A stretch of 64,000 bases of DNA from Fimicolochytrium jonesii. Its lineage: Eukaryota. Location of the stretch: contig NW_026515680.1 of assembly GCF_025526975.1 (NCBI RefSeq), forward strand, positions 558,001 through 622,000, given 5' to 3'. Position numbers and translations under genes: made by a program. Positions 1-31,966 of this stretch are shown one piece after another. The notes under the pieces were generated by a model that did not search any database, was not told the origin of the DNA, and saw nothing but the letters and a program-made list of their open reading frames with translations. Positions within the stretch are counted from its first letter, which is position 1. Each line of letters begins with the position of its first letter.

Positions 1-1
1 A

Positions 2-1453
2 ATCCAACTGCAAATCATTTTCTATACGTTTAACTCCGTTACTTGCTGTGAGTTTCTCACCGAACGTGTTGTTACCATCGAATGTGATTGCACCTGAGAC
101 AGATGGAGCGAGTTTGACTTGGTTCGAATTCTCTAATTTCATTCCGCCATTTCCAGGTTGAAAAGTTAGTCCTATCGCAATTTTATCATTTACGATGCGA
201 ACACCTTTATTGTCAACGATAGCCGACGGATTTACTGAAAGATTTTGTGAAGAGTCAATTGCTAAACTTGCGTCCGTTCTCACGTCAACAATACGCCTTC
301 CGTTACTCACGCCAGAAATGTCTATACCAGAACCCGCTTGATACAGTTGCTCTACGTACCCGGATGTCACTACTTCATCATTCGAAGGGTTGAAGTTGCT
401 TGTAACGTATATATGGGGAACATGTAATTCATTGAGTGTTTCATTATACGTAAAACTACTGTCTCCATTGAATCCGCTTAAAGCAGAGTAGAATGGAACC
501 TGTCCCATACCTTTCGAGCGGATAGCCAATTTTCCTCCTGTTTGTTGGAAATCATCAGATGTCTTCAAACGCACAACGGTTGTATCAACATCAGTTTCTG
601 ATCCCAAAAAGTCCGCTAGAGAATCGAAACCGGTCTCTAGAAGGTCATCGAGTGCTAAAGATCCTGCCTTGTCGTTGCTAATCGCCCCCCGTCCAACTAT
701 CACTGTATCAATATCCGTCTCAAGTTTGCTTTCATCGCTGAGTTTCAAACCTTTTCCATAATCAAGATGAATTACCTTGTCTGCATCTTTCGAAAGCGGT
801 TCTGCTACCTTCACTATTTCGTCAACAGTCGCTTCGATGTTCTCCTTAACGACCGAAAGTTGCCCGTTCACAACTGTCAAGGTCGAATCAAAGTCCAAAG
901 AGACTCCGCTGATGTCACGCGTCAACGGGGCTGTCAAAGGCTCTTTGACAACTGCCAACTTACCATTACTCACCTCCAATGAATCATCAAAATTCAATTT
1001 AAGCCCTTCATCGTCTCTTGACAAGGGTTCTTGAAGATCTTCTAGATCCGTTGGGGGAAAGTTAACAGTCAAACCTTCGTCGCTCACTGAAAGGGTCTGA
1101 TCGTGGAACAAATTGAGACCGTTTTCATTTACTCCAAGAGGCAGGTTTGTTACAAGGGAAACAGTTCTGCTTTCATCGTTCCTTTCGAGCGGAAATTCCA
1201 TGTTGTAAGGGATTACTTCAACAGATGCAATTCCGTTGGTCTTGTAAATAATAGCATCTTCGCTGTCAACAAGGTCGTTGATTTTTAATTCACCATTTTG
1301 GTTGTAGAGCGTCTTCACCTCGGCTGAATGAAATCCGGAGAGTTTTGTGTCTCCACTAAGGGCTTTCATATTTCCGGAAACATACGGGCTGTTCAACAGC
1401 GTATCGTTTAAATTTCGCAAACCGCTCGAATTTCTGCTGTTTAATCCAGACAT
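2..1453 (-). CDS. Fiber-like virion protein with adenovirus/reovirus-type beta-spiral shaft repeats (3' end outside window)
   Basis: Not in the ORF track because it has no stop in the window. Manual translation from ATG 1453 (MSGLNSRNSSG...) stays open to the left edge. Repeats include EPLSRDDEGLKLNFDDSLEVSNGKLAV, APLTRDISGVSLDFDSTLTVVNGQLSV and EPLSKDADKVIHLDYGKGLKLSDESKL. Confidence 0.65.
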   Translation of the reverse strand, partial: MSGLNSRNSSGLRNLNDTLLNSPYVSGNMKALSGDTKLSGFHSAEVKTLYNQNGELKINDLVDSEDAIIYKTNGIASVEVIPYNMEFPLERNDESRTVSLVTNLPLGVNENGLNLFHDQTLSVSDEGLTVNFPPTDLEDLQEPLSRDDEGLKLNFDDSLEVSNGKLAVVKEPLTAPLTRDISGVSLDFDSTLTVVNGQLSVVKENIEATVDEIVKVAEPLSKDADKVIHLDYGKGLKLSDESKLETDIDTVIVGRGAISNDKAGSLALDDLLETGFDSLADFLGSETDVDTTVVRLKTSDDFQQTGGKLAIRSKGMGQVPFYSALSGFNGDSSFTYNETLNELHVPHIYVTSNFNPSNDEVVTSGYVEQLYQAGSGIDISGVSNGRRIVDVRTDASLAIDSSQNLSVNPSAIVDNKGVRIVNDKIAIGLTFQPGNGGMKLENSNQVKLAPSVSGAITFDGNNTFGEKLTASNGVKRIENDLQLD

Positions 1454-1498
1454 TCTGTTATATTCAATGCATTACAAAATAAGATGTTGAACATTATT

Positions 1499-1612
1499 GG
1501 AGGCGTCATTTATTTTTTCACTTTTTTTTCCAACCGAAAATTCGTGTTCTCCGCAAGGTGACAACATGTAAAAGTTGTATAACTAATTTCACTTTGTCAC
1601 CCGTCGGAGAAC
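1499..1612 (+). repeat. Dispersed palindromic repeat copy 1 (67-bp core 1546-1612)
   Basis: GGAGGCGTCATTT leader, T-tract, then GTTCTCCG-N3-GGTGACAA-29bp-TTGTCACC-N3-CGGAGAAC. Confidence 0.95.
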
Positions 1613-1649
1613 GACGAATGTTTTTTTAATTAAAGCATTATATAAGGAC

Positions 1650-4631
1650 TTAATCGCAATTCAAGATATCGAACTCTTCGAATGATAGCAACGCTTCTGC
1701 TATCTTACCAAGTAACAATCCATTTGTGTCCCATGTGTACCGTTTCTTATTCTTACGTTTCTCTTTCGTTTTAACAATAATTGGTGCACAAAAATAAGCA
1801 TTGATGATCTTTGCGTATAGGTCCATTCTGTACGTTTTCGGTCGGTGAAACATTTTAAAAGATCTTTGTATGTCTCCAAAAGGTGAGTTACAGACATGCT
1901 CTGGTCTGATTTCCCCTTCGATTGTTAGATTATTGTCCTTGTAAAACTTGTGGACTATTGGGGCGCATTTTATGTCGTGATACAGTTCTTGACCTCGTTC
2001 TAACCTGCCAAAGTTATTTACTGCGTAGACGGTATCCCTGTACGTGTCCCAGTAGATTTCAACAAGGTTTTCAGTAACCACACTTCTAAATAGATTTCTG
2101 AATCTGAATTTTTTAACTTGAAGAATCTGATCGACATCTGCTTGGAGGGCTTCGATCAATCTTTCAAGTCTCTCACACTCTTCTCCTGAGATATCCTTAA
2201 TGTTATGCCATGAGAACATATTGAATCGACTGTCGAAACAGGCGCTTATTAAATGACGTGCATCCTTTTCCAATGCAAAGCATGTTTTGCTGCATAGTTT
2301 GATGTTACATAGATCTGCATACAATTTGAACAGATCCTGTGCCGATTTGTGATGTTTATCCGCGAAACTCTCTGAATCCATATGCGCGGCTAAGGTACGA
2401 AATCCATCGGATTGTGAAACAATCAGTCGATCCTGCTTTACTGCCTTCATGAAAGGTTCCGTAAACAGAATCCATATCTCATTCGAAAGTGGCCTCCGAA
2501 TTCTTGCCAGTAATTGGAAAAAGTCCCGGTACGATATACAAGCCGGATTGAAAATGCCAAAAACCCGGTCAAACGGGCGCATCCCTTCTTTTACATCATA
2601 ATTCACGCCCACCGCTAAAGCAGCGTTTCCAACCACCACTCGCACAGCCGGATTTCCCCATACCTCCTCAATATTTCTCAGATTCTCCTTGTCTTTTTTG
2701 CGATCCGCGTGGATACCAATTATTTCTGTTCCACGTTTCCATTTGTATTTTGCCATTAGCGTCGAAACAATGTTTTCCACCCCATCAAATGCGGAATGAA
2801 CCTTTCGGGAACCTTTTGCTCCCGATGCGATAAAGATCTTTTCCCCTTTATCCAGACTGTTGAACATTTTCGCATAAAGATCTTCTATTTCTTTGCAATA
2901 CTTGATCTCTCGTTGCGGAGGAGGAACACTCGATCCAATAATGAAACTTTCACCTCCAATGTCTCGAATCAAATCGGTTGTCGCTCTAGTAAGAAACCCG
3001 TCCATCCAAATTACCTTCTTTGCTGACGCCAACAGGCGCATGAAATTCTTCCAATGTTGAGATGGGTTACCATGGCATTTTGCATCGTCCGCAAAACTTC
3101 GCAATAACGTTTCGCACTCATCAATGACAATTATATCGTAAACTCCCCTTGCTAAGTAGATCGACTGAATGGAACATACGAGATAGGGATGATGCACTGG
3201 ATTTTGTTTCTCATCGGGTCTGTAATCCAGATAATATTTCCATTGGGTGATGCCTGTTTTTTCCATTCTTCCTCTTTGTTCATTTGTCAACGCAATTCTA
3301 CATGTTGTCCAAAGCGCTGTCAATTCTTTGTCCCCCTCCAATAATTCTTTGAGATAATCAATGGTACTTCCACTTTTGTTACCGCCGAGCGAAACATGCA
3401 ATACAATGTGTTTATAATTGTCACCCAAGTGAAGATCCGCTGAGGATAACCATCTTGAGTCAATGCGATGATTGAACTCTTTGTTTATCGCATTTTCCAT
3501 TACTTTGTATGGCGTCGACTTTAGAATGTTTCCGTTATAAACAGCAACCAAACACGCTTTCATGAAGTTCTCCGAAATGGGCTTCGACTGTACATCCACC
3601 CGATTCCAAAAGTCTATATATTTTGCTTTGCGTTGCGGAGTGCTATCCTTTTTCGAATTCCACTCCCAAAACGACGCAAAGGTGATACCTGCCATCTTAC
3701 ACCAACGACCGATCTCACTGCATAACCAGTTGGACAATTCAAACGTATCCCCACGTTTAGGGTTTGGCATGTGCGCTAGAAAATGCAGCGGATCCCCTCT
3801 ATAGATATCTAGGGTTTCCGGAGGTTCCAAGTTCATTCTCGGTATTTGACCCGGATAGTAGCGACCTTTTCTCGCTTGTACCGAGCCCTCGTCATTTTCT
3901 CGTGTTCTCTTCCGGAGCGCTGGAGCCCCGGTCGATAGAAAGTTTTGAAGTTCGGAAACATTCTTTACGTGGATGCTGTCCTTTGGAATACCATGCATGA
4001 TCGTGTGATCCAAAATGTTATCAGAACCTTCTATTATCTCCTGGACTCGTCCGTCACCTTTGGATTGGTTTACATATTTCATCAAGCCGTTCGCTCTGTA
4101 GATATTCATGTCAAATCCAAGTTCCTTATACATGGCACAAAACTGCTTAATCGGGTCAAGTTCGCCCACATTCAGAACGTGGTAGTTATTCACAACAATG
4201 TGATATGAGAATTTCAGAGTATCGCCCTTTTCCCCCACACTTCCCGAAATATTCATGGAAGCATTCGGAAGAATCGATCGAATCCTTTTTTTTACCTTCT
4301 TAATAGGATCATTCCAAAGATTTCCCGTATAATCAATATCAAACATTAGTTTCATCATTCTATCAGGATGCATAACTTCAAATAGTCCTTTGTCATCTTT
4401 CAGCAAATCCTCCAGTTTAGAGCATTCTACGATCGCATATTGGCAGTACTTTTTCTTCACCATCTCACCTTCCTTTTTTCCCTTTGCTTCATAATCTCAA
4501 ACATGGGCAACGAGGCATTGCTCAGGCCCACATCTCTCCATCAACGTTTCCATAACCTTTTTCGCTGTGTTCCTATTGGTGTAGAATGATAGACCATACT
4601 TATTGATTTTGGTGTAATTTGCAATATCCAT
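1650..4631 (-). CDS. AEP primase-polymerase fused to UL9/origin-binding-protein-like SF2 helicase (937-aa ORF 1650-4463; N-terminal extension from ATG 4631 broken by a frameshift and a TGA)
   Basis: AEP motifs KLMFDIDY, KFSYHIVV and FDMNIYRANG. SF2 motifs SLGGNKS, IVIDECE, WMDGFL, ALAVGVNYD and QLLARIR, the arrangement typical of UL9-like helicases. Confidence 0.8.
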
Positions 4632-4899: not shown

Positions 4900-4959
4900 C
4901 TACACCGCACCATTAGATTTTCGGTTTGGCTGTCAATACGACTATATGGAGTCCAAATG

Positions 4960-5081
4960 GGAGGCGTCATTTATTTTTCCTTTTTTTTCCAACGAGAAAC
5001 GTGTGAGAAGCATTGTTCTCCGCAAGGTGACAAAGTGTAAAAGTCGTATAACTTATTTCACTTTGTCACCAATCGGAGAAC
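4960..5081 (+). repeat. Dispersed palindromic repeat copy 3 (core 5015-5081)
   Basis: Same leader and 67-bp core; sits back-to-back with copy 2. Confidence 0.95.
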
Positions 5082-5692: not shown

Positions 5693-7195
5693 TCAGTCAA
5701 TTCTGACCTTTTTGACAGGTCGAGTGGGCATTTGTTGCGTTTTTGTAGGGCGTTTTCGGATGCTTACAGTAGGTTCAACATCCGCGACGGTAAATGTTGG
5801 AGGTATCGCATAATCGATTCTTTCCTTTCCGCGTAGATTTGCGATAGGACGCAAGAATGAGGCTTTTTCTTGTTTCTTAACACGGGAAGCCACTGGATCA
5901 ACAATGGTCTCAACTCCAACATTTGCTTGAACTATTCGATGCATTCTAGATCGTTCCAAAACTTTTGGATCTATTAATTGAATTTCGTCTGCATCATCAA
6001 TCTTTCGTCGCTTTGATGACGGTTCCTTTCTTAGAGAAACCTCCGCTTTTCGTTTAACAGCGGGATTAATGGCTAACTCATCAGTGCGAGCACCGATTCG
6101 GGCTTGGGGTCTTGGTGATGGGATTGTGTTATCTTTAGCGAGTGCGGACAATCTCCGTCTTGCTGCGCCATCATCGTGTACCTCAATGTTAATTCCATCA
6201 GAAAATCCTACCAATTCCTGCTTGTTAAGTGTGGATTGCAATAGTGAGTCTTCTAATCTGTTCTTTATTCTTCGTTTGGTCGGATCAAAACGACGATCTT
6301 TCCTCACATTTCCAATAGGCGTCTTTCCAGGGGTTCGAACGAGATTACTCGTAACTTGTGTTTTTGATAAGAGTTCCTCAACCTTATTCGGGTCGCTGAT
6401 GGTGGTCAAAGCGATTTCTGGTTTGTTTTCTGCTCTTTCATTCCCAATATTGATCTCCGGAGGTATGTTATTTTCAATTTTAACTTCATCTTTTCCGATC
6501 ATATTAGGAAACGATCCGGGCATCATTGGCTCTTGATAATCAAGAGAATTGCTTACAACAGGTGCTTTAAGAACAGATGAACTTCCGGTTTTGACTTGGG
6601 CTGCTCCAGTAAGGTTATCAACAACGATCTCTTTTTCGTGCGTGATTATAACTGGGTGGACACGTTGACCGGACACATTCTTTGGCAAATCTGGGACTTC
6701 ATGTAGGTTAGCCGGTGCTTCAAACATCAAGCCGGTTTGCGCAGTTGTTTGCGCATCATAGTTATACACCCTACCTTCCGTGTCGGGGACGGGAAGGCCA
6801 CTCGTCGATGTGCTTGTCCCAATTGTGACGGTCTTGTTTCGCCGAGATGGTGTGATGCTATCCAGATAGCGTTCTTTAGCGCGATAGTCCTTCTCGGCTT
6901 TGATATATTCTAGACCATCTTTGTATGCTTGGGTATAGTGCTGTTTTGCAGATAACCGGAGGATTTCGGCGCTGGAAACACGCTCTTCATAAACTGGTTT
7001 GACATAATGTGTTTTGGTTGCAAGATCTTTGTCGTGGATGTTTCTATTCCAAGAATAAATGACATCTGGCCTTCCATTCTCATCTAGATTATTATAGTCA
7101 AGGGCTCGTCCGATTTGGTGACGCTGGAGATTCGGGATTCCTTTTGACCTGTTGATCCCTTGGAATTCCAGCACGTTTGCTTTATAGAATGCCAT
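5693..7195 (-). CDS. Hypothetical viral protein (500 aa) with low-complexity region and basic C-terminus
   Basis: Long intact ORF; NLS-like basic clusters (PSSKRRKID, PVKKVRID). Confidence 0.7.
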   Translation of the reverse strand: MAFYKANVLEFQGINRSKGIPNLQRHQIGRALDYNNLDENGRPDVIYSWNRNIHDKDLATKTHYVKPVYEERVSSAEILRLSAKQHYTQAYKDGLEYIKAEKDYRAKERYLDSITPSRRNKTVTIGTSTSTSGLPVPDTEGRVYNYDAQTTAQTGLMFEAPANLHEVPDLPKNVSGQRVHPVIITHEKEIVVDNLTGAAQVKTGSSSVLKAPVVSNSLDYQEPMMPGSFPNMIGKDEVKIENNIPPEINIGNERAENKPEIALTTISDPNKVEELLSKTQVTSNLVRTPGKTPIGNVRKDRRFDPTKRRIKNRLEDSLLQSTLNKQELVGFSDGINIEVHDDGAARRRLSALAKDNTIPSPRPQARIGARTDELAINPAVKRKAEVSLRKEPSSKRRKIDDADEIQLIDPKVLERSRMHRIVQANVGVETIVDPVASRVKKQEKASFLRPIANLRGKERIDYAIPPTFTVADVEPTVSIRKRPTKTQQMPTRPVKKVRID

Positions 7196-7548: not shown

Positions 7549-9693
7549 TTAGGGGATGTGCTTTAGGATGTACTCGATTGTAGGTACGTTCATAGCGTTT
7601 CCAAGTAATCGCTTTCTACTTTTATCAGGGACAAATGCGGTGTATCCCACGGGAAACCCTTGTAACTTCTCGCGTTCCGAGCAGGTCAAAAGCCTGAATA
7701 CTCCATTTGCAGCGATAGCCAATTCATAACACTCGGTCGCTATGATGGTGTTACTTTTTCCATCGTCCCGAAATTTCACTGTTTGCTCCACCGTGTCCTT
7801 GTTGAACGCGGCAATGAGATCTGGGGGAGGAGGTTGTTTGAAGCATTTCCAATGGAGCGACTTTCCGGAATGATTGGGTTCTACTATACTGTCAATTGTC
7901 GGCGAAGGCACATCCAAAGGTTCCGGAACAAAGAAATTTGTCCAGTATAAACGGATTCGATTTTGTGCACAAAACGACGCGGCATTGAGTTTTTGCACCG
8001 TCGTAGACAAAAGTCCTTTCGAGATCTCCGCAATGCTTGCTGAATCCATAGGAACGTTTTCCATAATCACATATTGGGGTTGACAGTCGTTGCGGATTCT
8101 GACGAATTGTGTATACAAATCCGCCCGAGGATCGGTGAATTTAGTTTTTCCCGGATTGGCAAGCGAAAAAGGTTGACACGGAGGACCTCCGATTAACAGG
8201 TCAAAATCCGGTATGGTATTTGTTTTGATTTTGGTGATGTCTCCAAAGTTTTTATGTCGAGGATGATGCTCAACATAAACTTTTAAAGCGTCTTTATCTG
8301 TCTCGCAAAAGCCAACGCAAATGGCTTCGGGAAAGATTTTTCTTAATGCCATTTCGGCACCACCGATTCCAGCAAAGGCAGAAAAGTACCGCAATGGTCT
8401 TTTCTCGGAAATCTCCAGAATCCTTGGTATGCGCGTATTTAATCCGGGAATAAATCCATGGGTTCGAAAGACCTCGATGAATTTATCTGTATGTGGATAA
8501 TCTGCATCCGAGTCAATATACACGATCGTGCGTGAATAGACATCGTTCGAGATATGTGAATTCTTTGCCGAAAATCGCATGTCGTCCATTCGAACCTTTG
8601 CAGCGGCCGTTTTATCCCACGGGACTTTTCTCGTAAGGTGGCAACAAAGTCCCCGTGCGAGGGCGAACCTGCACCATTTCCGGTATGGACAATTCGGAAT
8701 GATTGCAATGATCCGTTTGATGTTTCCCTTTTTCATTTCCAACATTGTCTTTTCCCAAAAGTCGTTATGGAGGTAAGGTCTTTTCGCAGAAGTTTTCGGA
8801 CCATGTTGTAGAGCGTCGATTGCAGCACCAGGTGCATTAAGATAAACCCAATTGCTTTTTGTCCAATCAGACAACGTCAAAGCGTTGACAAATGTTCCGT
8901 CGACTTGTTCACCGTATACGGTTTTTGCAATGATCTTTGACTCGGGATTCCAGCACGGATCAAGATCAATTTCGCCACAAAATTTGGTGATCAGATTCAC
9001 CAGATATTGGGGCGTAATATACTCGTTTTCGGATCTTCCAAATCCAGTAGATATCGGAATATTCGGTCGTTTGGTAGTCTCCGAATCATCTTCGTCTGAG
9101 GTGTCTTGAGTAACCTCTTTTCGCTTTCTTAATCGGGAACTCCAATCTACTTCGTTCGTATCCCTTTCATTTTCGATCACATCTTCAATCTCTGTATCTT
9201 CATCTATCTCTTCATCTATCTCTGTGCGAGTGGTATCGTCCAACTGGAGACCGGGTTCGCCCGAAAGGTCAATGGCGGAATCGGGTGGTAGGTCTTCAAA
9301 TATTTCATCCATTTTGACCGCAATGACCATTTGACGAGAGCCAAAGTATTGAACCGCCTTTCTCCATATCTCAACATGAGTCAAATTTCGCTCTTTGTGA
9401 AGTTTATCCAACATGAGATAAAGCCCGATAGCGCAGGGCATTTTGTCCCGACCGAGTGTTTTCCCCATTTGAATAATAATTCGTCCGGCGCGGGAAAAGT
9501 TGTAACCGGCCGCTCTCGAAAGTTTCCATCTCGCTTTCAAATAATCGTCCGCTGCAGGATACGAAACCTTGTATAATTTCGCATCCAGTATGTGATGCAA
9601 AGCAATGCAGGTCTTGAGAAACCCGTCTCCGACATCAGGATTGATAATGAAATAAGTTGGGTCGATGTTTGCTTCATGAATGGCGAGAGCCAT
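7549..9693 (-). CDS. DNA methyltransferase fusion: N-terminal helical domain, phage Dam-like N6-adenine MTase domain, C5-cytosine MTase
   Basis: C5 motifs FAGIGG, GGPPCQPFS, MENV, QNRIRLYW, RLLTCSEREKLQGFP and LGNAM. Middle domain EYITPQ...DLDPC...VYLNAPG resembles phage Dam with an altered NPPY motif. Confidence 0.85.
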   Translation of the reverse strand: MALAIHEANIDPTYFIINPDVGDGFLKTCIALHHILDAKLYKVSYPAADDYLKARWKLSRAAGYNFSRAGRIIIQMGKTLGRDKMPCAIGLYLMLDKLHKERNLTHVEIWRKAVQYFGSRQMVIAVKMDEIFEDLPPDSAIDLSGEPGLQLDDTTRTEIDEEIDEDTEIEDVIENERDTNEVDWSSRLRKRKEVTQDTSDEDDSETTKRPNIPISTGFGRSENEYITPQYLVNLITKFCGEIDLDPCWNPESKIIAKTVYGEQVDGTFVNALTLSDWTKSNWVYLNAPGAAIDALQHGPKTSAKRPYLHNDFWEKTMLEMKKGNIKRIIAIIPNCPYRKWCRFALARGLCCHLTRKVPWDKTAAAKVRMDDMRFSAKNSHISNDVYSRTIVYIDSDADYPHTDKFIEVFRTHGFIPGLNTRIPRILEISEKRPLRYFSAFAGIGGAEMALRKIFPEAICVGFCETDKDALKVYVEHHPRHKNFGDITKIKTNTIPDFDLLIGGPPCQPFSLANPGKTKFTDPRADLYTQFVRIRNDCQPQYVIMENVPMDSASIAEISKGLLSTTVQKLNAASFCAQNRIRLYWTNFFVPEPLDVPSPTIDSIVEPNHSGKSLHWKCFKQPPPPDLIAAFNKDTVEQTVKFRDDGKSNTIIATECYELAIAANGVFRLLTCSEREKLQGFPVGYTAFVPDKSRKRLLGNAMNVPTIEYILKHIP

Positions 9694-22655: not shown

Positions 22656-23894
22656 ATGGACTCCGACAACACAGGAACCTCCTCTCTCAGATATGAGCCC
22701 ATCACTCCGGAGGATCTCCGGAACCTCACCAAGTTTTACTATCAGAATCAAAACTTTCTAGGACGAGACAAATTGTGGTATGCGTATAGAAAAGCATTTC
22801 CAAATAGCAGGATTTCACAAAGAACTCTTCTCAACGATTTTCTGAAGAAGCAAGAGATTTGGCAGAGATCTACAAAAGTTATGGGATCCCGAGGCTCGAT
22901 AAAACCGATTTTGGCCGGAAAAGAAGGAAATTACCAGATCGATTGTATAAATTTGACATCGATAGCATACAATGGATATAAGTATTCGGTCAACGCTTCA
23001 GACATCCTCACTAAAAAGGTGTATAGTATGGCGATGAAGTCACAAGATCAAGCCACTGTTGTCAAGTTTCTAGGAACAATGAAACGGGATGGCGCTGTGC
23101 TAGTAAGTTTTACATCCGATGTAGGTACGGAATTTCAAGGTCAGGTGCAAGAGTGGGCCGACTCGAATAACGTGGAGTGGAAGTTCGGACAACCCGGTGT
23201 CCCCCAAGGACAAGGACAGATTGAATCCGTTAACAAAAATATAAAAAATCTGATCTATTCCTCGATACGTTTCGGAAAACGGGATTGGCCAAATTATCTT
23301 CAAAAACTCATAGATAATTTAAACAACACGAAAACGTATGCGACAGGGAAGGCTTCAAACGAAATCTTACAAGATGAACATGAAGCCATTTTCGATCGCA
23401 TACGGAACAAGAAATTGAAAGGGGTGAAATCAACAGTTTTGAACGAATTTAAAGTGGGAGATGTTGTAAGAAAGATAATACCGTTACCAAGTGGTATTAA
23501 AAGGCGCGCAAAAGTTGGATATTTCTCGTCACAAACTTATAAAATTGCAGGGAAAGTGCAAAGTAACTATGCAGGTTATGTTTCATCGTATAAATTAAAC
23601 AGAATGGATGGAACAAGACTTCCTGGTTTAACATCTGCTAACGACCTTCGGCTAGTTCCATCAGGAACCGTCAACGTACCGAACATCGCTTCCCAGCCAG
23701 ATCCCAATGAAAACGATGAATGCGAAATCGATTCAATCCTTGATAGTAGAGTAGTACGTAGAGGCAACAGAAGGATAAAGCAGTACAAGGTTCTATGGAG
23801 TGGTTATGATGCGTCCCAATCAACTTGGGAAGATGAAGGGAATCTCGAAAATGCACGGGAGGCCATAGCCCAGTATGAAGAGCAAAATGGATAA
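22656..23894 (+). CDS. rve (DDE) integrase with C-terminal chromodomain, intact
   Basis: YQIDCI, FTSDVGTEF and QGQIESVNK; chromodomain EIDSILDSR...YKVLWSGY...STWEDEGNL. Confidence 0.9.
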   Translation: MDSDNTGTSSLRYEPITPEDLRNLTKFYYQNQNFLGRDKLWYAYRKAFPNSRISQRTLLNDFLKKQEIWQRSTKVMGSRGSIKPILAGKEGNYQIDCINLTSIAYNGYKYSVNASDILTKKVYSMAMKSQDQATVVKFLGTMKRDGAVLVSFTSDVGTEFQGQVQEWADSNNVEWKFGQPGVPQGQGQIESVNKNIKNLIYSSIRFGKRDWPNYLQKLIDNLNNTKTYATGKASNEILQDEHEAIFDRIRNKKLKGVKSTVLNEFKVGDVVRKIIPLPSGIKRRAKVGYFSSQTYKIAGKVQSNYAGYVSSYKLNRMDGTRLPGLTSANDLRLVPSGTVNVPNIASQPDPNENDECEIDSILDSRVVRRGNRRIKQYKVLWSGYDASQSTWEDEGNLENAREAIAQYEEQNG

Positions 23895-23901: not shown

Positions 23902-25056
23902 TCAAAACTTGTCATCTAGATTTAAATCGTCATTAAGATCGTCGATATCCATCGCATCATCATTAGATGAGCCTTCGTTCTCCCTGTGAAGGTTATAATA
24001 CACTTGTCGTGTTGCATAGGAATGACCATGCTTTTTCGCAAACTCTTTTTGGACCCGAGGATCTCCGTTATCCAATTTGATCGAGTCAATGACTACAATT
24101 TTTCAAAGTTCATTGACTCCAAGTTCTTCTCCGATATGTTGTTTACAAGCGATCTTCATAGCCCTTCCAAAACCTCCGCCTTCATAGGGTTTACTTGCGT
24201 TGCGCGCTTTTTCAAACAATTTACTTTGACCTTTAGCCTTACGAATATCAACCAGATTATCAATGTGCCTTTTGACAATGTCATCGATAATTGTAATAAG
24301 AACATCGGTGTCTCCCTTATTTTTATTACATGCTTTTATCAGAAAGGTATGGGTTTCCGTATCAAATGTGACATTATCCGCTTCGGAAATGAGCATAAAC
24401 TTTGCTTCGCCAATGTCCGCTCTTCGAATGACATCTGAACCGACAAAACAAGCCGCTGCTATGAGCAACCCATACTTATATGGGTCTTTAACGGCCTTTT
24501 CTTTACGTTCATCCAATTTCTCGTAAAGAGCATTGATTAAAGCGTCCTTTTCGATGAAGCGGTTCGTTTCATATTCTTTATCCATTACGAGATCCCGGGC
24601 TTGTATCTCTTTGCAACGATCGCCGTTGATCTTGAGATAGAAATGTCCCATTTCGTCAATATGCGTAAGTTTGTCCATTGTGCACGCATCTAGGAATCGT
24701 TTCTTTGCAGTTTCACCATAGAGGCTAGACGAAAGCCAATCATACAATCCTATTTTTTCCTCGTTTGTCATAATTTTGAACAGAGCGGACAACACCTTTG
24801 TACAATTCGCTCCATCGTCTTTAGGGTAATTTTTTTTCAAGATTTTCATGACATCGGTTGGAGATGATAGGACATTCGGATCAAGAATCCCGTATGCTTC
24901 AAGTCCATTACAAGCCGACAGATATACCTTTCGGCTACTCGGAGCCAATCCTATCTTTCCATTCTTTTGTTGGACGGTATCGGCATATCGGTTGATAAGT
25001 TTCTTTGCTATTTCAATATTCATTGCTGTGTCGTTCTTTGGTTGTGCATAAACCAT
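23902..25056 (-). pseudogene. Tyrosine recombinase with an in-frame TGA at 24103-24105
   Basis: IRRADIG (R). Reading through the stop gives GVNEL*KIVVID...EFAKKHGHSYATRQVYY...DDKF*, which restores the GHS...Y catalytic box. Confidence 0.8.
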
Positions 25057-25179: not shown

Positions 25180-25490
25180 AAACACCCACCCCCAAACAAA
25201 ACTTTAATCAGTACAGAACCACCCCCACTTCCCCGAGTATGATCATGCAGAATCGCCCACACCTGCGCCGTCTATTCAGCCGAAACCACCCCCGCGGCAA
25301 GGTTACTAAAATTAAGCATTCACCCACATGCGGAGTGAGTAAAAATGGTACAGAAACAAATCACCCCCTAGAGGGGGTGATTTGACTCTTCTCGAAACAA
25401 AATACGGGGGGTGTTTCCATTCCATAACTGAGCAATGCAAGCGGGGGTGTTTTCTACCTCCCGTTTTCCAATGCCCGCGGGGGCGTTTCC
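25180..25490. promoter_or_regulatory. Symmetric cluster of ACCCCC/GGGGGTG motifs around a 26-bp palindrome (25358-25383); candidate origin or divergent promoter
   Basis: AAATCACCCCCT-AG-AGGGGGTGATTT, with CACCCCC motifs on the left and GGGGG(T/C)GTTT motifs on the right. Confidence 0.55.
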
Positions 25491-25548: not shown

Positions 25549-27873
25549 GTGAGGTTGCGGATGTTGTTCTTTCCCGTTTGCGGAAAGGAAAACTGCCACG
25601 AAAAAATATATAAGGGTAAAAAAATGTTTGTTTCCCCTCAAAAAATTTCAAACAGTTCCTCACTCTTAACAACTATTGCACACAACCGCTTTCGCCATAA
25701 CTTTCAACAAACGCACGTTCTCAACATGCAAAAACGCCAAAACACCATGGAATTGGCTCCGAAGCGCATCAAAATAGCCAAACGTACCGTCCAAAGGGCT
25801 GAACCGGGCTCTTTGGATGTGATCAATAACGAAGTGAATCGCAATGAAGACCATATCGATCTCTCAGTTGCGTTGGACTTGGACAATATATTCGATATCG
25901 ATCCTATGAATTTGAGCATCGAGCCATTGGATTCTCATTCGACTCAAAACACTCCGACGATCAACAAGCCCGATCTCGTTGGCTTGCAGATGGATGTCAA
26001 TCAAAATGAAAACGTCATGATTGACAACCAAACCGATGTCAATAACGATCATCCCCAGGAACGTCTGGAAGATGTGCCTGACCGAATCCTTCCGGGCACT
26101 CAAACGGTTATAATTGACGACATTCAGATCGATAACCCCAAGGAACTTGCAGAAAATATGCAGACGGAAGAAGTTCCGGGTTTGAACATTGAAGACATCA
26201 AACCTGAAGCAATTACTGTTACCAGCACCGCAGTTGTTGTTCATAAAGAAAATCCGGATTCTTCGAATCATGATATATCCTTGTGTGATTGTAGAGGATG
26301 TACCAAATGTCGATTATACGCGAATTTCGCTTACGCTTTGAGAGTATACAAGGAGCCGAAATCCGGGGATCAATGGATAACCCATGCTGCGGACTTCTTC
26401 GAATTTGATTATGGACATCTCATCCGCTTGGGCGACAAAAAGGGCTTCTTGCGATGTAATCCCTCGACGCGAACGAATATATGCTTGAACAAAATCGCCT
26501 TCACAGCCTACGTCGCCCAAGAATTGTTCGATATGTTCAATGCGGTCGATCAGAATGCAACCCCGGGAGCGAAGAACGAGATTACCCAAAAATGCAAGAA
26601 AGTGGTTGACATCCTATACGGCCGGATGCAGTTAAAGAAGGCTGAGGATCCAGTACCTCCTGTAGACAATAGCCATCTGATCGCTTTCAGAAACGGCTAT
26701 GTCTACGACCGAAATATTGGTGAATCTCGAAAGCGCATTGATGAGGATGGTGAAATTGAAACGTTCAACTACGATCTTGTCGAGTGGGATACCGAGAAAT
26801 ATCCCACACAGCGGTACTTGTGGGATGCCATATGCAAAATATGGCCTGAGAATTCCGATCGCTATTATGCGCTCACCAGTCTCAGTACATTCTTGGGAAG
26901 CAGACGCGGTATCCGTGAATTGCTTATATTTCACGGGGAAAGTTCCAATGGCAAAAGTTTGATTGGAGGATTGATGAAACTTATAACATGTCATCGCTTT
27001 CTGGGAGCAACCGCGCAGACGTTACAAAGGAAACCTGGGAACGGAAATGAACCATCTGAGATTCACTGGAAAATGGGCCAAAAATCAACACTCGTCACTT
27101 GGTTTTCTGAAGGGGATGAGAAAGATTTATATTACGGTTCAGCAATCAAAATCGCTGTCGGAGGCGATTCTACTTCTGTCCGGAGGGGTCATAACAAATG
27201 TGAGCAGGTTACGGTAGAGGGATTGGTGATTCTCGCTACGAATCATTACCCTTATTTGGATTGCGGACTGTATGATAAGGATCACAAGGACATCACAGCC
27301 AAATTGGTGGTGATACCTTGCAAATCGACGTTCGTCGATGCAGATGAACATTTTGACCCGAGTCAAAATATATATTTGAAGGACTTCGAACTCGACCGTC
27401 TCATCCAAAACGCAAGTCCGGACTTGGCGAGTGCCATGATGGCACTAATGATTTCGTTTCACAACGATCATCTGCTAGAGAAAGAATATCCGATACTGAG
27501 AAAACCCGCATCAGTGGTTTCAGCGACTGAGGAATTAATCACGAGAGTACACCCGTATCGCACGTTCCTGAAGGAAATGTGTGTCATTGAAGAAGGCGCG
27601 AAAATGTCGCAATGCGTGGCAATTCAAACTCTACGAACATGGATGAAGGAGCATCCGGTATGGTACAAATCCGTACCTCGGACCCAGGATTTCAAGGGTT
27701 TTCTGCTACACGCATACGATAAGACAGTTACTTTCGGCCAAAACATACGAATAAACGGAGTACAGACAACCGGATATCACGGGGTCAGATTGAAGAACGA
27801 GGATAATGATGGAGGTTATAATAAGTTTCTGTTTGGCAGTATCGACATCCTTGCGAGAGGCATTGAAGAGTAG
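25549..27873 (+). CDS. D5-like SF3 helicase lacking a recognisable primase domain (likely ATG near 25726)
   Basis: Acidic disordered N-terminus, CDCRGCTKC, D5_N-like LIAFRNGYVYD, Walker A GESSNGKS, FSEGD, ILATNH. Confidence 0.8.
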   Translation: MRLRMLFFPVCGKENCHEKIYKGKKMFVSPQKISNSSSLLTTIAHNRFRHNFQQTHVLNMQKRQNTMELAPKRIKIAKRTVQRAEPGSLDVINNEVNRNEDHIDLSVALDLDNIFDIDPMNLSIEPLDSHSTQNTPTINKPDLVGLQMDVNQNENVMIDNQTDVNNDHPQERLEDVPDRILPGTQTVIIDDIQIDNPKELAENMQTEEVPGLNIEDIKPEAITVTSTAVVVHKENPDSSNHDISLCDCRGCTKCRLYANFAYALRVYKEPKSGDQWITHAADFFEFDYGHLIRLGDKKGFLRCNPSTRTNICLNKIAFTAYVAQELFDMFNAVDQNATPGAKNEITQKCKKVVDILYGRMQLKKAEDPVPPVDNSHLIAFRNGYVYDRNIGESRKRIDEDGEIETFNYDLVEWDTEKYPTQRYLWDAICKIWPENSDRYYALTSLSTFLGSRRGIRELLIFHGESSNGKSLIGGLMKLITCHRFLGATAQTLQRKPGNGNEPSEIHWKMGQKSTLVTWFSEGDEKDLYYGSAIKIAVGGDSTSVRRGHNKCEQVTVEGLVILATNHYPYLDCGLYDKDHKDITAKLVVIPCKSTFVDADEHFDPSQNIYLKDFELDRLIQNASPDLASAMMALMISFHNDHLLEKEYPILRKPASVVSATEELITRVHPYRTFLKEMCVIEEGAKMSQCVAIQTLRTWMKEHPVWYKSVPRTQDFKGFLLHAYDKTVTFGQNIRINGVQTTGYHGVRLKNEDNDGGYNKFLFGSIDILARGIEE

Positions 27874-27952: not shown

Positions 27953-28141
27953 ATGCGTCCTTGGTATCCAAAGCGGTCTCCTTCGGGCAAAATTATTAAC
28001 CCGAAAGGAACTCGACAATGCAAGACCGCTGAATGCCAATCAGAACCTATTCCCTACATCAAAAATCGGCTATACTGCTACGATTGTTGGGTCAAGTCAA
28101 AGGAACCTAAAGGCTTCAAGATAGAATTCGATTTGGATTGA
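27953..28141 (+). CDS. Small C4 zinc-finger protein
   Basis: Homolog of 5387-5572. Confidence 0.8.
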   Translation: MRPWYPKRSPSGKIINPKGTRQCKTAECQSEPIPYIKNRLYCYDCWVKSKEPKGFKIEFDLD

Positions 28142-28359
28142 TCCAGATCATCTGATTTCGAACTCAAAGGCTCCTTCAATGTCCTTTTGATGGTGATGTG
28201 TCTCCGCGTCCTGCATGATTCTACATTACCCAAAATTCGCGCAACAGTGGATGCGGCAATATCTAGTTTTCTAGCAAGATCACGGACGCTCCGGCCTGTG
28301 ACAGTCTTGATTTCTCCATCCTCAAAGAGTGATGCAATATAGTTGTAAGGAATGTACAT
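28078..28359 (-). CDS. Small helix-turn-helix protein
   Basis: SVRDLARKLDIAASTVARIL is a canonical HTH pattern. Confidence 0.65.
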   Translation of the reverse strand: MYIPYNYIASLFEDGEIKTVTGRSVRDLARKLDIAASTVARILGNVESCRTRRHITIKRTLKEPLSSKSDDLDQSKSNSILKPLGSFDLTQQS

Positions 28360-28464: not shown

Positions 28465-31158
28465 ATGTCTTCCAAATTTGCTGCTCACGTTGAATCCAAA
28501 CCTATCAGAGACATCTACCATTTCAAGGAATCTTACTTCGGAGGTGTTCCCGAGTTCAATTGGACACTCGAAGAATACGAAAAGAAACATATGGAACACA
28601 AGTGGCTTACCGAAAACTTTACAAAATTGGGCGCCAATGACAAGATCAAATTGTTTGTCGATTTCGATATGAGATTTGAGGAAGAATCCGATCTGCCCTC
28701 TGAAGAAGTTGAGACTGAAATCCGTAAAGGTGTTGATAAAGTATTTACCTCCTTGTATTTAAATGAGGATATTACTTTTCATTCTGCATTCCGTACAATG
28801 GGATACGCTCCTAAGCACACCAAGGACAAAAATGGTAAATACGTCGAAACCGGTGGTGGATATAAAGTCTCTTATCGCCTATGGGCAGATGGTATGTATA
28901 CGACCCGGAATGAAATGAAGAAGAAACTCAAGAAATTCATCCCAGATTTGTCCGACTTCCCGGATGTTGTTCGAGACTACAATTTCAAGGATGGAGTTTT
29001 TGATCTTTCTGTCTATGACAACAATCGGTCCATGGTGATGGTGGACAAAGTCAAAAATCGTTGGGATAACCGACTTCTCATCAAAAGCGAACCAGATGCA
29101 CCAATCTCTTCATATATCATTCAATATGTAGAGGCGGACTGGACCCCGGTTGAATGGACAATTCAATCTGATAGTAGAAAGCGTCCTGCCAATGATGAAT
29201 TTGTCCTGGTTCCGGACTCGGACCTTGAAGACCAACCGCAACCAAAGAAGAAAAAGGCAAAATATCCTATTGACAACGATGCTAATACGGAGGTAATCAG
29301 CACTATTTACGATTCAGTTACCAAACTCTGTGGAAAAACGGAATATTTGGAAAGAGATTTTGGGGCCGTACAAAAATATGAGGATGCGATTGTGGTATTT
29401 TTGAGAACCACATACTGCATGTTGCACCATGCAGAACACGATGTCTCCGTTCCCAAAATATTTTTCATAGTGGATCGAAAGAAATTCACGTTCAAATGTC
29501 AGCACTGTGAACGCTCAAAAACCTATGGTCATAAAAGCAAAAAGATCTTGGACTTGTTCCCGCCGCCCATTACTGAACCCGCAAAAACGAGTGAAGAAAA
29601 GGATACTGTTGTAACTTGTGAAGATTTGGAAGGTCTAACAGGTTGGGAGAAGTTTGATTTCCGCCGAATTTTGAATATTAGCCACAAGAATACCGCCGAA
29701 TGGTTCATTGAAGAGCGAGGTGAGACTTTATTGAAACATTCAAGCGGCTTGATGTTTGTTCTAGGCAAAGATAATATCTGGCGAAAGTATGAGGGCAGGG
29801 TCCGAAATAGCGACTTGAATCTTCAGATTGCAGACACGTTGATTAGCAGTTTTGAGAAACTACTAGATGATTTTGACTCACAAAGAAGTGATCACGGTAA
29901 GTATCTGAAACTGCGATGGATTTACGAAAAGTTTCGAATGCTGATCGAGGAGACTACGTACTCCATCAATGTAGCACAGAACGTGGAACGGCTCTGTACC
30001 GCGAACGACACTTGCATCGAACTTTTTCTTTCAAAACCTCACCTATTTGCTTTTAACGATAAAGTGTACGACCTGATTGAAGGAGAGGCAAGATCCATCA
30101 AATGGGATGATTACATACTATTCACATGTGGTTACAACTATCCGACGACGCGAAGCCCTGAGATGCGTGAGAAGATTGAAAACTTTTACCAATCTATATT
30201 CCGAACTGAAGAATTGATGACTTACCGACTTTGCAATGTTGCGAGGTGTCTCTACGGAGAACTAGTTGAGGAAATCTTCACGATCCTCAAGGGGCCGGGT
30301 CGGAACGGAAAGGGTGTGGAAGGTACTCTCCTTGCTGTTACGTTTGGAAATTACTTCTATACCTTGGACAAGAAAAACTTTACCCGGGAGCAGCAAGATG
30401 TTGACAAAGCAAACTCGCAACTATACAATTGCTTCGGAAAGAGGTATTTGATGACAAGCGAAACAAATAAGAATGATCGATTTTTATCCGAAATGTTCAA
30501 GAAAGTGTCTGGGAATGATAAGATAACAGTGAGAACACTTAACGGTAAACCCATCAGTTTTCCGATCACTGGGCAAACCAATGTTCAGACAAATGAAGAC
30601 CCGGTCTTTGATAAAATAGACCTCGCATTGTGCAATCGGGTGCGAATGCAAGAGTTTCCATACAGTTTCACTCTCAATGGCTCTGAACCGATCAAGGAAG
30701 AGGGAGATGGAATTCAGGAGGAACAACTTCAAAAAGAAGGTGATATGAAATTGAAAGGATACTTCAAAACAAATGCATGCCGGGACGAGTTCATTTTGCT
30801 TCTCATTGGCATATTCCGCAAACGTTTTGTGAAGGAAGATAAAACCCTCAATATGAGCATTGAAGTCCCTGCAGAGGTACGAGCCTTCACCCAAAAGAAC
30901 TTAGCGAACAGTTTGGCAGCAGCGAAATGGTTGAAGTTCCACTACGATATCACAGGAAGCGATGATGACCGGGTGACCAGATCTGATTTATACAAGGAGT
31001 ATTCCGTTACGGTTCTCGATCAATCAAGGCGCGTCGGAAAGCAGCAATTCTTCAAAGAACTAACAACCATTCAAATCAAGGAACGAAAAATAAGAGGGAA
31101 CATATGGTTCCTCGGACTGAAAAAGGCGACCAGAGAAGGAGAGATGTATATAGAATAA
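28465..31158 (+). CDS. AEP primase fused to D5-like SF3 helicase
   Basis: KLFVDFD, KVSYRL and FDLSVYDNNR (AEP); C/H cluster CMLHHAEH...CQHC; LFAFNDKVYDL; Walker A GPGRNGKG; MTSE; VQTNE. Confidence 0.85.
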   Translation: MSSKFAAHVESKPIRDIYHFKESYFGGVPEFNWTLEEYEKKHMEHKWLTENFTKLGANDKIKLFVDFDMRFEEESDLPSEEVETEIRKGVDKVFTSLYLNEDITFHSAFRTMGYAPKHTKDKNGKYVETGGGYKVSYRLWADGMYTTRNEMKKKLKKFIPDLSDFPDVVRDYNFKDGVFDLSVYDNNRSMVMVDKVKNRWDNRLLIKSEPDAPISSYIIQYVEADWTPVEWTIQSDSRKRPANDEFVLVPDSDLEDQPQPKKKKAKYPIDNDANTEVISTIYDSVTKLCGKTEYLERDFGAVQKYEDAIVVFLRTTYCMLHHAEHDVSVPKIFFIVDRKKFTFKCQHCERSKTYGHKSKKILDLFPPPITEPAKTSEEKDTVVTCEDLEGLTGWEKFDFRRILNISHKNTAEWFIEERGETLLKHSSGLMFVLGKDNIWRKYEGRVRNSDLNLQIADTLISSFEKLLDDFDSQRSDHGKYLKLRWIYEKFRMLIEETTYSINVAQNVERLCTANDTCIELFLSKPHLFAFNDKVYDLIEGEARSIKWDDYILFTCGYNYPTTRSPEMREKIENFYQSIFRTEELMTYRLCNVARCLYGELVEEIFTILKGPGRNGKGVEGTLLAVTFGNYFYTLDKKNFTREQQDVDKANSQLYNCFGKRYLMTSETNKNDRFLSEMFKKVSGNDKITVRTLNGKPISFPITGQTNVQTNEDPVFDKIDLALCNRVRMQEFPYSFTLNGSEPIKEEGDGIQEEQLQKEGDMKLKGYFKTNACRDEFILLLIGIFRKRFVKEDKTLNMSIEVPAEVRAFTQKNLANSLAAAKWLKFHYDITGSDDDRVTRSDLYKEYSVTVLDQSRRVGKQQFFKELTTIQIKERKIRGNIWFLGLKKATREGEMYIE

Positions 31159-31159
31159 G

Positions 31160-31713
31160 CGGGGGGCATTTTGAGAAGTGGGGCAAAGTGAAAATGCCCC
31201 CCTAGAGGAATGTAGAGAAGTGGAAAGAAAAGAGAGAGTGAGGACGGGATAATAGATGTAGGGGGGCATTTTGGCAGTTTCAAAACCTATGAGAGAATAT
31301 ATAAAAAGTATTTGAGAAGCAATAATGAGAAAAGAAGTGTGATTTGTGTGGGAGAGGGTGGGTTTGAAAATTGCCTTTTTGCCCCCCTACATGAAATATG
31401 GTATGGGCGAATAGATAGGAAGGGTAGTTTGGCTAGACGCATGTAGGGGGGCATTTTGTTTTGCCCCCCTTTTTCAAAAATGCCCCCGCAGACGGGAAAA
31501 AGATACAGGGGGGCCATTTTGGCAGTTTCTAAACCTATGAGAGGATATATGAAAAGTTTTGAAAAGAAGAATGAGAAAAGGATGTCTCTTTTTGGTGGTG
31601 AGAGTTGGTTCGAAAATTGCCTTTTTGCCCCCCTACATGGAACACGGAATGGGGAAGTATAGAAAGGTTGGTTGGACTCGACGCATGTAGGGGGGAATTT
31701 TGACTTTGCCCCC
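31160..31713. repeat. Subterminal tandem repeat of element B (two units, period ~245 bp) with inverted ATGTAGGGGGGCA / TGCCCCCCTACAT motifs
   Basis: Units at ~31256-31469 and ~31503-31713 share CATTTTGGCAGTTTC, GAAAATTGCCTTTTTGCCCCCCTACATG and GACGCATGTAGGGGGG. Confidence 0.9.
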
Positions 31714-31732
31714 TTTCCCAAATTGCGGAAGG

Positions 31733-31966
31733 ATGGTTAATGGCTGAAAGGCTTGTGCGGTTAATGCATAACACCAAAGGTGTAGGGTACATTGTTAATA
31801 CATTACACCATACACCCGCCAGTACGGTTAATGCATTACACTTTCAGCAGCCGTTACGGTTAATGCACAGTGTTGAGTGGAGTCAGTACGGTTAATGCAC
31901 AGTGCAATTGTATAGTGGATCAGTGCATAGCATAAACCATTGGTTTATGCTATGCACTGATCCACA
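31733..31966. repeat. Right terminus of element B: (AC)GGTTAATGCA iterons plus 51-bp palindrome (31915-31965) ending in ACA
   Basis: GTGGATCAGTGCATAGCATAAACCA-T-TGGTTTATGCTATGCACTGATCCAC(A), preceded by about six GTTAAT motifs at roughly 24-34 bp spacing. Confidence 0.9.

What the first reader, a model, noticed from the sequence alone, without database searches (positions are those of the whole stretch)
1..31966. Two nested endogenous capsid-encoding viruses, each carrying both a chromodomain rve integrase and a tyrosine recombinase
Seen: the same gene order occurs twice (MCP, coiled-coil, penton, ATPase, small protein, conserved spacer, integrase, convergent YR) with clearly diverged proteins. 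Established: Polintons/adintoviruses typically integrate with an rve integrase and replicate with pPolB, while many PLVs use a YR; having both tail-to-tail is unusual. Inference: a fungal PLV/MELD-like lineage that uses the integrase for chromosomal insertion and the YR for another step (excision, circularisation, dimer or hairpin resolution), with primase-helicase replication rather than pPolB.
Basis: partly seen in the sequence, partly recalled or inferred. Interest (0 to 1): 0.85.

Follow-up and report, generated by a model that had tools for sequence, protein, structure and literature searches.

The report
Chytrid viruses with recombinase-linked palindromic ends
Two related small capsid-encoding DNA viruses sit side by side in a fungal genome, each with an integrase, a recombinase and a perfect palindrome at its right end, and the same short DNA motif at each end and at the start of that virus's own recombinase gene suggests the recombinase likely works on the viral ends rather than being a second integrase.

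Summary
Positions 1-31,965 (42% GC, host 52%) contain two polinton-like viruses, A (<1-17,837) and B (17,838-31,964). Both have the order MCP, coiled-coil, penton, ATPase, small ORF, chromodomain rve integrase, convergent tyrosine recombinase (YR), with 26-32% protein identity. B's MCP has a double jelly-roll fold, and its named relatives are all from Spizellomycetales chytrids. Nesting is not shown, because neither left end is in the window. The two YRs are not alignable.

In both elements the best internal match to that motif lies at the 5' end of the element's own YR gene (rank 1 of about 35,000 and 28,000 positions; 8 and 17 of 2,000 shuffles). Likely mechanism: the integrase joins the CA end to host DNA, a primase-helicase fires subterminal origins, and the YR binds and processes the palindromic ends, probably into hairpins, although YR-A has a Xer/Cre-type fold.

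Chytrid MELD/PLVs, rve plus YR (virophages), terminal palindromes and nesting are each already published. My literature searches did not find the YR-to-end link. Verdict: new variant, interest 0.55.

The parts
2..1453 (-). Element A: fibre-like protein, runs off the window
   Evidence: PF06536 avian adenovirus fibre E 4e-13
1499..1615 (+). A repeat copy s1 (conserved leader plus 71-bp imperfect inverted repeat with a 6-bp core)
1650..4463 (-). A: UL9-like SF2 helicase with a likely N-terminal AEP primase (937 aa)
   Evidence: PF02399 E 1.3e-8, phrog_4913; AEP motifs read by eye; architecture as in PMC11253617
4784..4900 (-). A repeat copy s2, upstream of the helicase; 98% identical inverted copy of s4
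4959..5081 (+). A repeat copy s3
5693..7195 (-). A: 500-aa ORF, basic C-terminus, no family
7549..9693 (-). A: DNA methyltransferase (C5 domain; an N-terminal part resembles a second MTase family)
   Evidence: PF00145 E 8.5e-40; phrog_116 and phrog_111
9790..9906 (+). A repeat copy s4
9971..11211 (-). A: major capsid protein, split by a frameshift near 10,850
11238..11723 (-). A: coiled-coil protein
   Evidence: 32% to B's
11781..12500 (-). A: penton-like gene, about three frameshifts
   Evidence: 31% to B's; penton identity inferred
12524..13230 (+). A: A32-like packaging ATPase, frameshift near the 3' end
   Evidence: 26% to B's
13254..13463 (+). A: small ORF (69 aa)
13449..13719 (.). A: conserved non-coding spacer before the integrase
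   Evidence: 75% identical to 22362-22657; weak folding; no Rfam match
13623..15022 (+). A: rve integrase with C-terminal chromodomain, frameshift near 14,065
14976..16112 (-). A: tyrosine recombinase, intact (R181, K224, later R, H and Y motifs)
16155..16167 (-). Best internal match to A's terminal motif, 43-55 bp upstream of the YR-A start
17052..17441 (+). A: subterminal tandem pair of the repeat (s5, s6; 189-bp period); likely origin
17709..17792 (+). A: array of four terminal-motif copies
17792..17837 (.). A right end: perfect 46-bp palindrome, TG...CA, centre TATATA
   Evidence: largest chance arm 10 in 20 simulations
17905..18543 (+). B: 212-aa ORF whose frame is open back to A's end
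   Evidence: no family
18796..20019 (-). B: major capsid protein, double jelly-roll, intact
20075..20545 (-). B: coiled-coil protein
   Evidence: same order penton-cc-MCP is fused in Geranomyces P0004
20587..21336 (-). B: penton-like protein (inferred)
   Evidence: position and homology to A's; no Pfam, PHROG or PDB hit
21392..22126 (+). B: A32-like packaging ATPase
   Evidence: PF04665 E 2.7e-8
22155..22376 (+). B: small ORF (73 aa)
22362..22657 (.). B: conserved non-coding spacer
22656..23894 (+). B: rve integrase with chromodomain, intact
23903..25056 (-). B: tyrosine-recombinase-like gene with an in-frame TGA at codon 318
25044..25056 (-). Best internal match to B's terminal motif, overlapping the YR-B start codon; 12-nt exact match to B's palindrome
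25357..25490 (.). B: G-rich sites (including a 28-bp palindrome) upstream of the first helicase; best internal matches to the subterminal iteron
25561..27873 (+). B: D5-like SF3 helicase (770 aa)
   Evidence: phrog_1156 E 4e-16
28078..28359 (-). B: small HTH-like ORF
   Evidence: weak HTH hits, E about 0.01
28465..31158 (+). B: primase-D5/SF3 helicase (897 aa)
31159..31730 (.). B: subterminal duplicated inverted iterons around an A-rich spacer; likely origin
31758..31899 (+). B: array of four terminal-motif copies
31916..31964 (.). B right end: 49-bp palindrome, TG...CA, one unpaired central base; host DNA (GC 58-68%) follows

Best explanation
These are two related endogenous polinton-like viruses, likely of a Spizellomycetales chytrid, whose right ends are perfect TG...CA palindromes; the rve integrase likely joins the CA end to host DNA, and each virus's own tyrosine recombinase likely binds the terminal motif and processes the palindromic ends, most probably into hairpins. 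Shown: the capsid fold, the gene set, the palindromic ends, and the recurrence of each terminal motif at that element's YR start. Inferred steps: (1) the free genome is linear with fold-back ends; (2) the primase-helicase (UL9-like SF2 in A, D5/SF3 in B) loads at the subterminal inverted repeats, copies of which also sit upstream of a helicase gene; (3) replication yields palindromic end-to-end junctions, which the YR cuts in staggered fashion across the self-complementary centre and reseals as hairpins; (4) the integrase nicks after the CA at the base of the hairpin, or uses the CA of the opened end, so the provirus keeps a full palindrome; (5) the same YR reaction at both proviral ends would release the genome; (6) the motif at the YR start is an autoregulatory operator. 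A abuts B's interior, so A was probably inserted into B.
For: Only two perfect palindromes in 64 kb have arms of 20 bp or more, one at each right end; chance gives arms of at most 10. Both are bounded TG...CA, and B's sits at the GC step to host DNA. A weight matrix made only from each element's four array copies ranks the YR 5' region first: 1 of 35,274 positions in A and 1 of 27,780 in B. It is rank 1 in 26 of 30 and 23 of 30 width settings; the other element's motif ranks it 41-673; column-shuffled matrices put the top hit there in 8 and 17 of 2,000 trials. B's palindrome shares an exact 12-mer with the YR-B start (8 of 20,000 shuffled palindromes do) and carries the motif on both arms next to the centre. 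Unrelated YRs go with unrelated end motifs, while the integrases are homologous. A second motif class links the subterminal repeats to helicase genes in both elements. Telomere resolution and Cre-like recombination are interconvertible by few mutations (PMC12270096, abstract).
Against: YR-A's fold is clearly closer to XerA, Cre and Tn1549 Int (Z 13-14) than to protelomerase TelA (Z 7.2-7.6). No PF16684 hit was found for either YR. B's palindrome has an odd centre, unlike the 6-nt-stagger N15 site described in PMC13236599. A's palindrome matches A's array matrix only weakly (6.3 bits), and A's YR-proximal hit (12.6 bits) scores below a chance hit in B (13.6 bits), so only its position is significant. 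I noticed the B match first, so it is post hoc; A is the independent test. A's second-best hit lies in the penton/ATPase promoter region, so the motif could be a promoter element or bind another protein. [quoted passage not shown] The evidence comes from two elements only; no related locus could be fetched.
Confidence: 0.45

Rival explanations
1. The YR binds the ends but acts as an ordinary recombinase. It recombines the left and right terminal palindromes, whose symmetric cores have no direction, to excise or circularise the genome or to resolve concatemers; the hairpins form by simple fold-back priming.
For: Xer/Cre-type fold; the same motif link to the ends; end-module model in which YR and primase-helicase both act on the terminal repeats (PMC11296320 passages); fold-back priming model in bioRxiv 2026.07.28.741278.
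Against: B's central base would mismatch in one alignment; an empty site would keep one palindrome, which could not be examined here; circles were not tested.
Confidence: 0.25
2. YR-A acts on the six internal repeats (long inverted arms around an asymmetric 6-bp core), excising, inverting or swapping replication and accessory modules. This would explain the variety of replicases in chytrid MELD viruses.
For: Six copies bound gene blocks, five direct and one inverted. Arms look shuffled: s3's left arm matches s5's right arm at 22 of 22 positions but its own at 19 of 22. s2 and s4 are 98% identical and inverted.
Against: The arms (about 33 bp) and AT-rich centre also fit an origin for a UL9-like helicase. 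B's equivalent repeats have a 73-nt spacer and no such core. The terminal motif, not this repeat, sits at the YR start; these sites score 5.1 bits or less on it.
Confidence: 0.13
3. The YR is a second integrase for inserting into a helper giant virus genome, as proposed for EMALEs and Halocafeteria virophages, and the palindromes serve only replication priming.
For: Published proposal (PMC8547959 section 7; bioRxiv 2026.07.28.741278). YR-A's nearest viral structures are giant-virus proteins. Chytrids carry giant viruses (PMC13533422 title and passages).
Against: It does not by itself explain the end motif at the YR start, though it is compatible with the YR binding the ends; no helper virus sequence is present in the window.
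Confidence: 0.1
4. The YR is a passenger or relic of module turnover and the motif match is chance or a promoter element; A and B are simply adjacent decayed insertions.
For: YR-B carries a stop in a virus with intact capsid and integrase genes; A's motif hit is not exceptional in score.
Against: YR-A is intact, with 24 relatives that keep catalytic positions, 11 of the 16 looked up named from chytrids; the motif position repeats in both elements.
Confidence: 0.07

Closest known systems
Powellomyces MELD viruses (Starrett et al. 2021, PMC8502044; section 3.4 and passages read, figures not seen)
   Same: Chytrid host of the same order, adenovirus-like fibre, non-PolB replicases (the figure legend lists S2H, S3H and YRec among MELD genes); a P. 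hirtus MCP relative is 42% identical to B's.
   Different: Their sequences and gene maps were not available, so membership is untested; terminal palindromes and a YR-end link are not mentioned in the passages read.
Halocafeteria seosinensis endogenous virophages and PLVs (bioRxiv 10.64898/2026.07.28.741278; passages and part 2 of 5 read)
   Same: About 50-nt terminal palindromes next to the insertion site, non-pPolB replication genes, two replication genes in some elements, nesting, rve plus YR in some virophages.
   Different: There, rve+YR occurs in virophages 'but not PLVs'; the YR is proposed to integrate into giant viruses and the palindromes to prime replication. Here the capsid is PLV-type, the host fungal, and the end motif recurs at the YR start.
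Mid-GC EMALE virophages of Cafeteria burkhardae (PMC8547959, section 7 read)
   Same: rve integrase plus YR, primase/helicase instead of pPolB.
   Different: Virophage-type MCP and protease; 'palindrom' and 'hairpin' do not occur in the main text.
Spizellomyces punctatus PLV and chytrid Aquintovirus-like elements (PMC7805220 passages and supplement rows; bioRxiv 2026.06.19.733378 parts 1-3 of 5)
   Same: Integrated PLVs in chytrid genomes, known mainly from MCP and ATPase placements.
   Different: No S. punctatus MCP was among B's 13 MCP hits; the S. punctatus locus has a pPolB-like neighbour by supplement BLAST rows; ends and the INT+YR pair are not described in what I read.
Protelomerases (N15, TelA, ResT) and the phaeovirus telomere resolvase (PMC13236599 passages)
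   Same: Proposed reaction: a YR-superfamily enzyme turning a palindromic junction into hairpin ends.
   Different: YR-A has a Xer/Cre-type rather than TelA-type fold; the palindromes lie at proviral ends joined by a DDE integrase, not at an internal site.
Adintoviruses / Mavericks (PMC8502044 passages)
   Same: rve integrase with a chromodomain, jelly-roll capsid, A32 ATPase.
   Different: No pPolB or protease seen in the window; animal-type virion proteins not detected.

Membership tests
Polinton-like viruses (operational group) | Double jelly-roll major capsid protein | tested here: met
   Foldseek to PBCV-1 Vp54 E 1e-14, TM 0.6; A's MCP is homologous by HMM
Polinton-like viruses (operational group) | A32-like packaging ATPase | tested here: met
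   PF04665 E 2.7e-8 in B; A's is 26% identical
Polinton-like viruses (operational group) | Single jelly-roll minor capsid protein | tested here: inconclusive
   No Pfam, PHROG or PDB sequence hit; not folded (both jobs used); assigned by position
Polinton-like viruses (operational group) | Integration enzyme (rve or YR) | tested here: met
Polinton-like viruses (operational group) | Terminal inverted repeats and target-site duplication | not testable with these tools
   No left end in the window; no genome held
Mavericks / adintoviruses (Polintoviricetes) | pPolB and cysteine protease | tested here: inconclusive
   None among 25 ORFs scanned; left arms unseen
Mavericks / adintoviruses (Polintoviricetes) | rve integrase with chromodomain | tested here: met
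Virophages (EMALE type) | Virophage-type MCP and maturation protease | tested here: inconclusive
   Mavirus and Sputnik MCPs rank below PBCV-1 (E about 1e-10 versus 1e-14); no protease seen; no phylogeny against virophage sets
Powellomyces MELD viruses | Adenovirus-like fibre with a non-PolB replicase | tested here: met
   PF06536 and PF02399 in A; D5-type helicases in B
Powellomyces MELD viruses | MCP or ATPase clustering with the six published genomes | not testable with these tools
   Sequences not obtainable; the held supplement is cut and has no Powellomyces text
Tyrosine recombinases (Xer/Cre/Int type) | Core-binding plus catalytic fold with R-K-R-H-Y residues | tested here: met
   YR-A: Z 13-14 over about 270 residues; R181 and K224 conserved, the H of HxxR variable. 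YR-B: motifs only, with a stop at the second-arginine position
Protelomerases (TelA, TelK, ResT) | Protelomerase-type fold or PF16684 domain | tested here: not met
   YR-A: TelA Z 7.2-7.6, rmsd 8-9, no PF16684. YR-B is inconclusive: an Atlas cluster with PF16684 scored 0.94 but with 121 shared features versus 140 for phage integrase
Protelomerases (TelA, TelK, ResT) | Palindromic target with a self-complementary even centre | tested here: inconclusive
   A has an even 6-bp centre; B has one unpaired central base
Protelomerases (TelA, TelK, ResT) | Hairpin-forming activity | not testable with these tools
   Needs an in vitro assay

The most novel reading that the evidence does not exclude
These fungal viruses use a Xer/Cre-type tyrosine recombinase as a hairpin telomere resolvase, recruited at least twice from unrelated YR families. 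They pair it with a retroviral-type integrase that inserts the hairpin-ended genome so that each proviral end is a ready-made telomere-resolution site, letting one enzyme both finish replication and cut the provirus out.
Probability: 0.3. Interest if true: 0.85.

Novelty: new variant of a known kind. Interest (0 to 1): 0.55.

Why it matters
How pPolB-less polinton-like viruses and virophages replicate their ends and leave the chromosome is open, and the second enzyme in rve+YR elements has been assumed to integrate into giant viruses. Here the sequence names a candidate substrate: an intact YR (A), its terminal array and palindrome, and a predicted operator, so a single in vitro assay can decide between hairpin formation, recombination and no activity. 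A hairpin-forming enzyme with an ordinary recombinase fold would widen the known origins of telomere resolvases and could be useful for making closed linear DNA.

Tried and rejected
No whole genome is held. No sequencing run was listed, which is no evidence either way. No related locus was found in IMG/VR with MCP, MCP alignment, integrase, ATPase, YR-A or the repeat pattern, nor in JGI metagenome contigs, so flanks and ends of relatives were not seen. Word-based homolog searches found nothing for YR-A or the read-through YR-B. No left TIR of A or B was found anywhere in the window: local alignment scores were within shuffled nulls in all 12 comparisons. This rejects 'B starts right after A as a complete element'. 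The 212-aa ORF is not detectably related to A's 500-aa ORF (E 0.07), so it gives no support for an inversion in A. The conserved spacer is not a known RNA, folds only weakly (z -0.85 and -1.49) and its differences fit no reading frame. No CpG depletion in A or B. B's right flank matched no transposon family (0 of 20 frames at E 0.01, one weak unrelated hit). The MCP tree places A on a long branch outside B's cluster and included no published PLV sets. The wide VIA search was never run. Literature searches for a YR acting on PLV or virophage palindromic ends returned the papers cited and no such demonstration; the library is incomplete and bioRxiv supplements are closed.
Full report
Setting. 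Positions 1 to about 31,965 are 42% GC against 52% for the rest. The rest holds fungal host genes (MOR2-PAG1, RNA12-like, isocitrate dehydrogenase). B's capsid protein has 13 relatives; the 8 that carry a name come from Geranomyces, Gaertneriomyces, Phlyctochytrium and Powellomyces. Of 24 YR-A relatives, 16 were looked up and 11 are named, all from chytrids. The host is therefore likely a Spizellomycetales chytrid.

Observation. Two gene blocks share the order MCP, coiled-coil, penton-like, ATPase, small ORF, spacer, integrase, convergent YR, with 26-32% protein identity. B's MCP model matches PBCV-1 Vp54 (E 1e-14, TM 0.6), so it is a double jelly-roll. Both integrases end in a chromodomain. 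YR-A folds confidently (pLDDT 88.8) and matches XerA, Cre, XerH and Tn1549 Int at Z 13-14, TelA only at Z 7.2-7.6. YR-B cannot be aligned to YR-A's family beyond the last motifs. It looks like viral YR-type clusters in the Atlas and has an in-frame stop at codon 318. A replicates with a UL9-like SF2 primase-helicase and also carries a fibre and a methyltransferase; B has two D5-type helicases. No pPolB or protease was found among 25 ORFs scanned.

State of the genes. A has about six single-base frameshifts within 3.2 kb (MCP, penton, ATPase, integrase; read from the frames), while about 9 kb of its other long ORFs are unbroken. This clustering could be consensus error rather than decay; no reads were available to check.

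Ends. The only perfect palindromes with arms of 20 bp or more in the 64 kb are at 17,792-17,837 and 31,915-31,965; 20 simulated sequences gave arms of at most 10. Both can be read as bounded by TG...CA (B's from 31,916 to 31,964), the end signature of retroviral-type integrases (established knowledge). Each is preceded by four copies of a short motif and, further in, by a duplicated large inverted repeat. The architecture is the same in A and B, but the sequences are unrelated. No left end exists in the window, so nesting is an inference. For it: A's end abuts B's interior, and an open frame runs up to the junction (22 extra codons, about a one-in-three chance). Against it, weakly: the inner, younger element would be the more broken one. 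A 5'-truncated B next to A is not excluded.

What the YR acts on. I noticed that B's end motif recurs at the YR-B start codon and then tested both elements. Matrices built only from the four array copies rank the YR 5' region first in A (1 of 35,274) and B (1 of 27,780). This holds in 26 of 30 and 23 of 30 width settings. The other element's motif ranks the same region 41-673, and shuffled matrices succeed in 8 and 17 of 2,000 trials. Among 13 and 11 gene-start regions, the YR's is best in each; A's ATPase region is second. The simplest reading is an autoregulatory operator, meaning that the YR recognises the terminal motif (inference). Caveats: B was post hoc; A's hit is notable for position, not score; A's palindrome itself matches weakly; another protein or a promoter function could explain the motif. 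A second motif class behaves in parallel. A's subterminal repeat recurs on both sides of its helicase gene, and B's iteron has its best internal matches upstream of the first helicase. This fits origins or operators for the primase-helicase.

Mechanism. Most likely the free genome is linear with fold-back ends, replicated from subterminal origins. The YR resolves the palindromic junctions, and the integrase transfers the CA end, leaving a full palindrome at the proviral boundary. I put about 0.7 on the YR working at the ends: 0.45 as a hairpin-former and 0.25 as an end-joining recombinase. The fold argues against membership of the protelomerase family but not against the activity, since a few mutations convert TelA to a Cre-like recombinase (PMC12270096, abstract only). 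The other rivals are recombination at A's six internal repeats (arm shuffling seen), integration into a helper giant virus, and a passenger gene.

Comparison with print. Chytrid PLVs: PMC7805220 (passages, supplement rows) and bioRxiv 2026.06.19.733378 (parts 1-3 of 5, plus a term search). Powellomyces MELD viruses and chromodomain integrases: PMC8502044 (passages, section 3.4; supplement cut, figures unseen). rve+YR with primase/helicase: PMC8547959 (passages, section 7). Terminal palindromes, nesting, and rve+YR in virophages but not PLVs: bioRxiv 2026.07.28.741278 (passages, part 2 of 5). End-module model: PMC11296320 and its preprint (passages). Phaeovirus telomere resolvase: PMC13236599 (passages). 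AEP-SF2 helicases: PMC11253617 (passages). Also seen as passages only: PMC10120064, PMC12220804, PMC13533422. Searches found no paper tying a PLV or virophage YR to terminal palindromes by a shared motif; unseen supplements and figures could change this. Earlier scan notes report similar palindromic ends and nests in another chytrid genome; these are unchecked leads, seen after my own reading.

Verdict. The feature is real and a new variant of a known kind: every component has a precedent, while the rve+YR pair in a fungal PLV with a sequence link from YR to ends appears new and is directly testable. Interest 0.55; the boldest reading has probability 0.3 and interest 0.85.

Noticed in passing
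window 13449-13719 and 22362-22657: Non-coding spacer 75% identical between A and B although the flanking proteins are about 30% identical; possibly a regulatory element for the integrase or a recent exchange. No Rfam match, weak folding.
   Followed up: partly
window 4784-4900 and 9790-9906: Two repeat copies 98% identical in inverted orientation enclose the 85-aa, 500-aa, 99-aa and methyltransferase genes; a possible invertible segment.
   Followed up: partly
window 1499-4900: A's helicase gene is flanked by inverted copies of the repeat, like a self-contained mobile replication module.
   Followed up: partly
window 7549-9693: The 714-aa methyltransferase appears to fuse two MTase domains (phrog_111-like at residues 216-345, C5 domain at 421-713).
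   Followed up: no
window 10850-14070: About six single-base frameshifts cluster in 3.2 kb of A while its other long ORFs are intact; could be assembly error.
   Followed up: partly
window 16225-16407: A roughly 100-bp direct repeat pair between YR-A and the 141-aa ORF.
   Followed up: no
window 31970-32845: A 292-codon open frame with cysteine pairs and a proline-rich stretch starts just past B's end, suggesting B interrupted a host or repeat ORF; no Pfam match.
   Followed up: partly
window 41048-41524 and 56079-56332: Short dispersed repeat clusters (26-60 nt units) in host DNA.
   Followed up: no
window 25561-31158: B carries two D5-type helicase genes in the same orientation with a small HTH-like gene between them; possibly a replication module being replaced.
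   Followed up: partly
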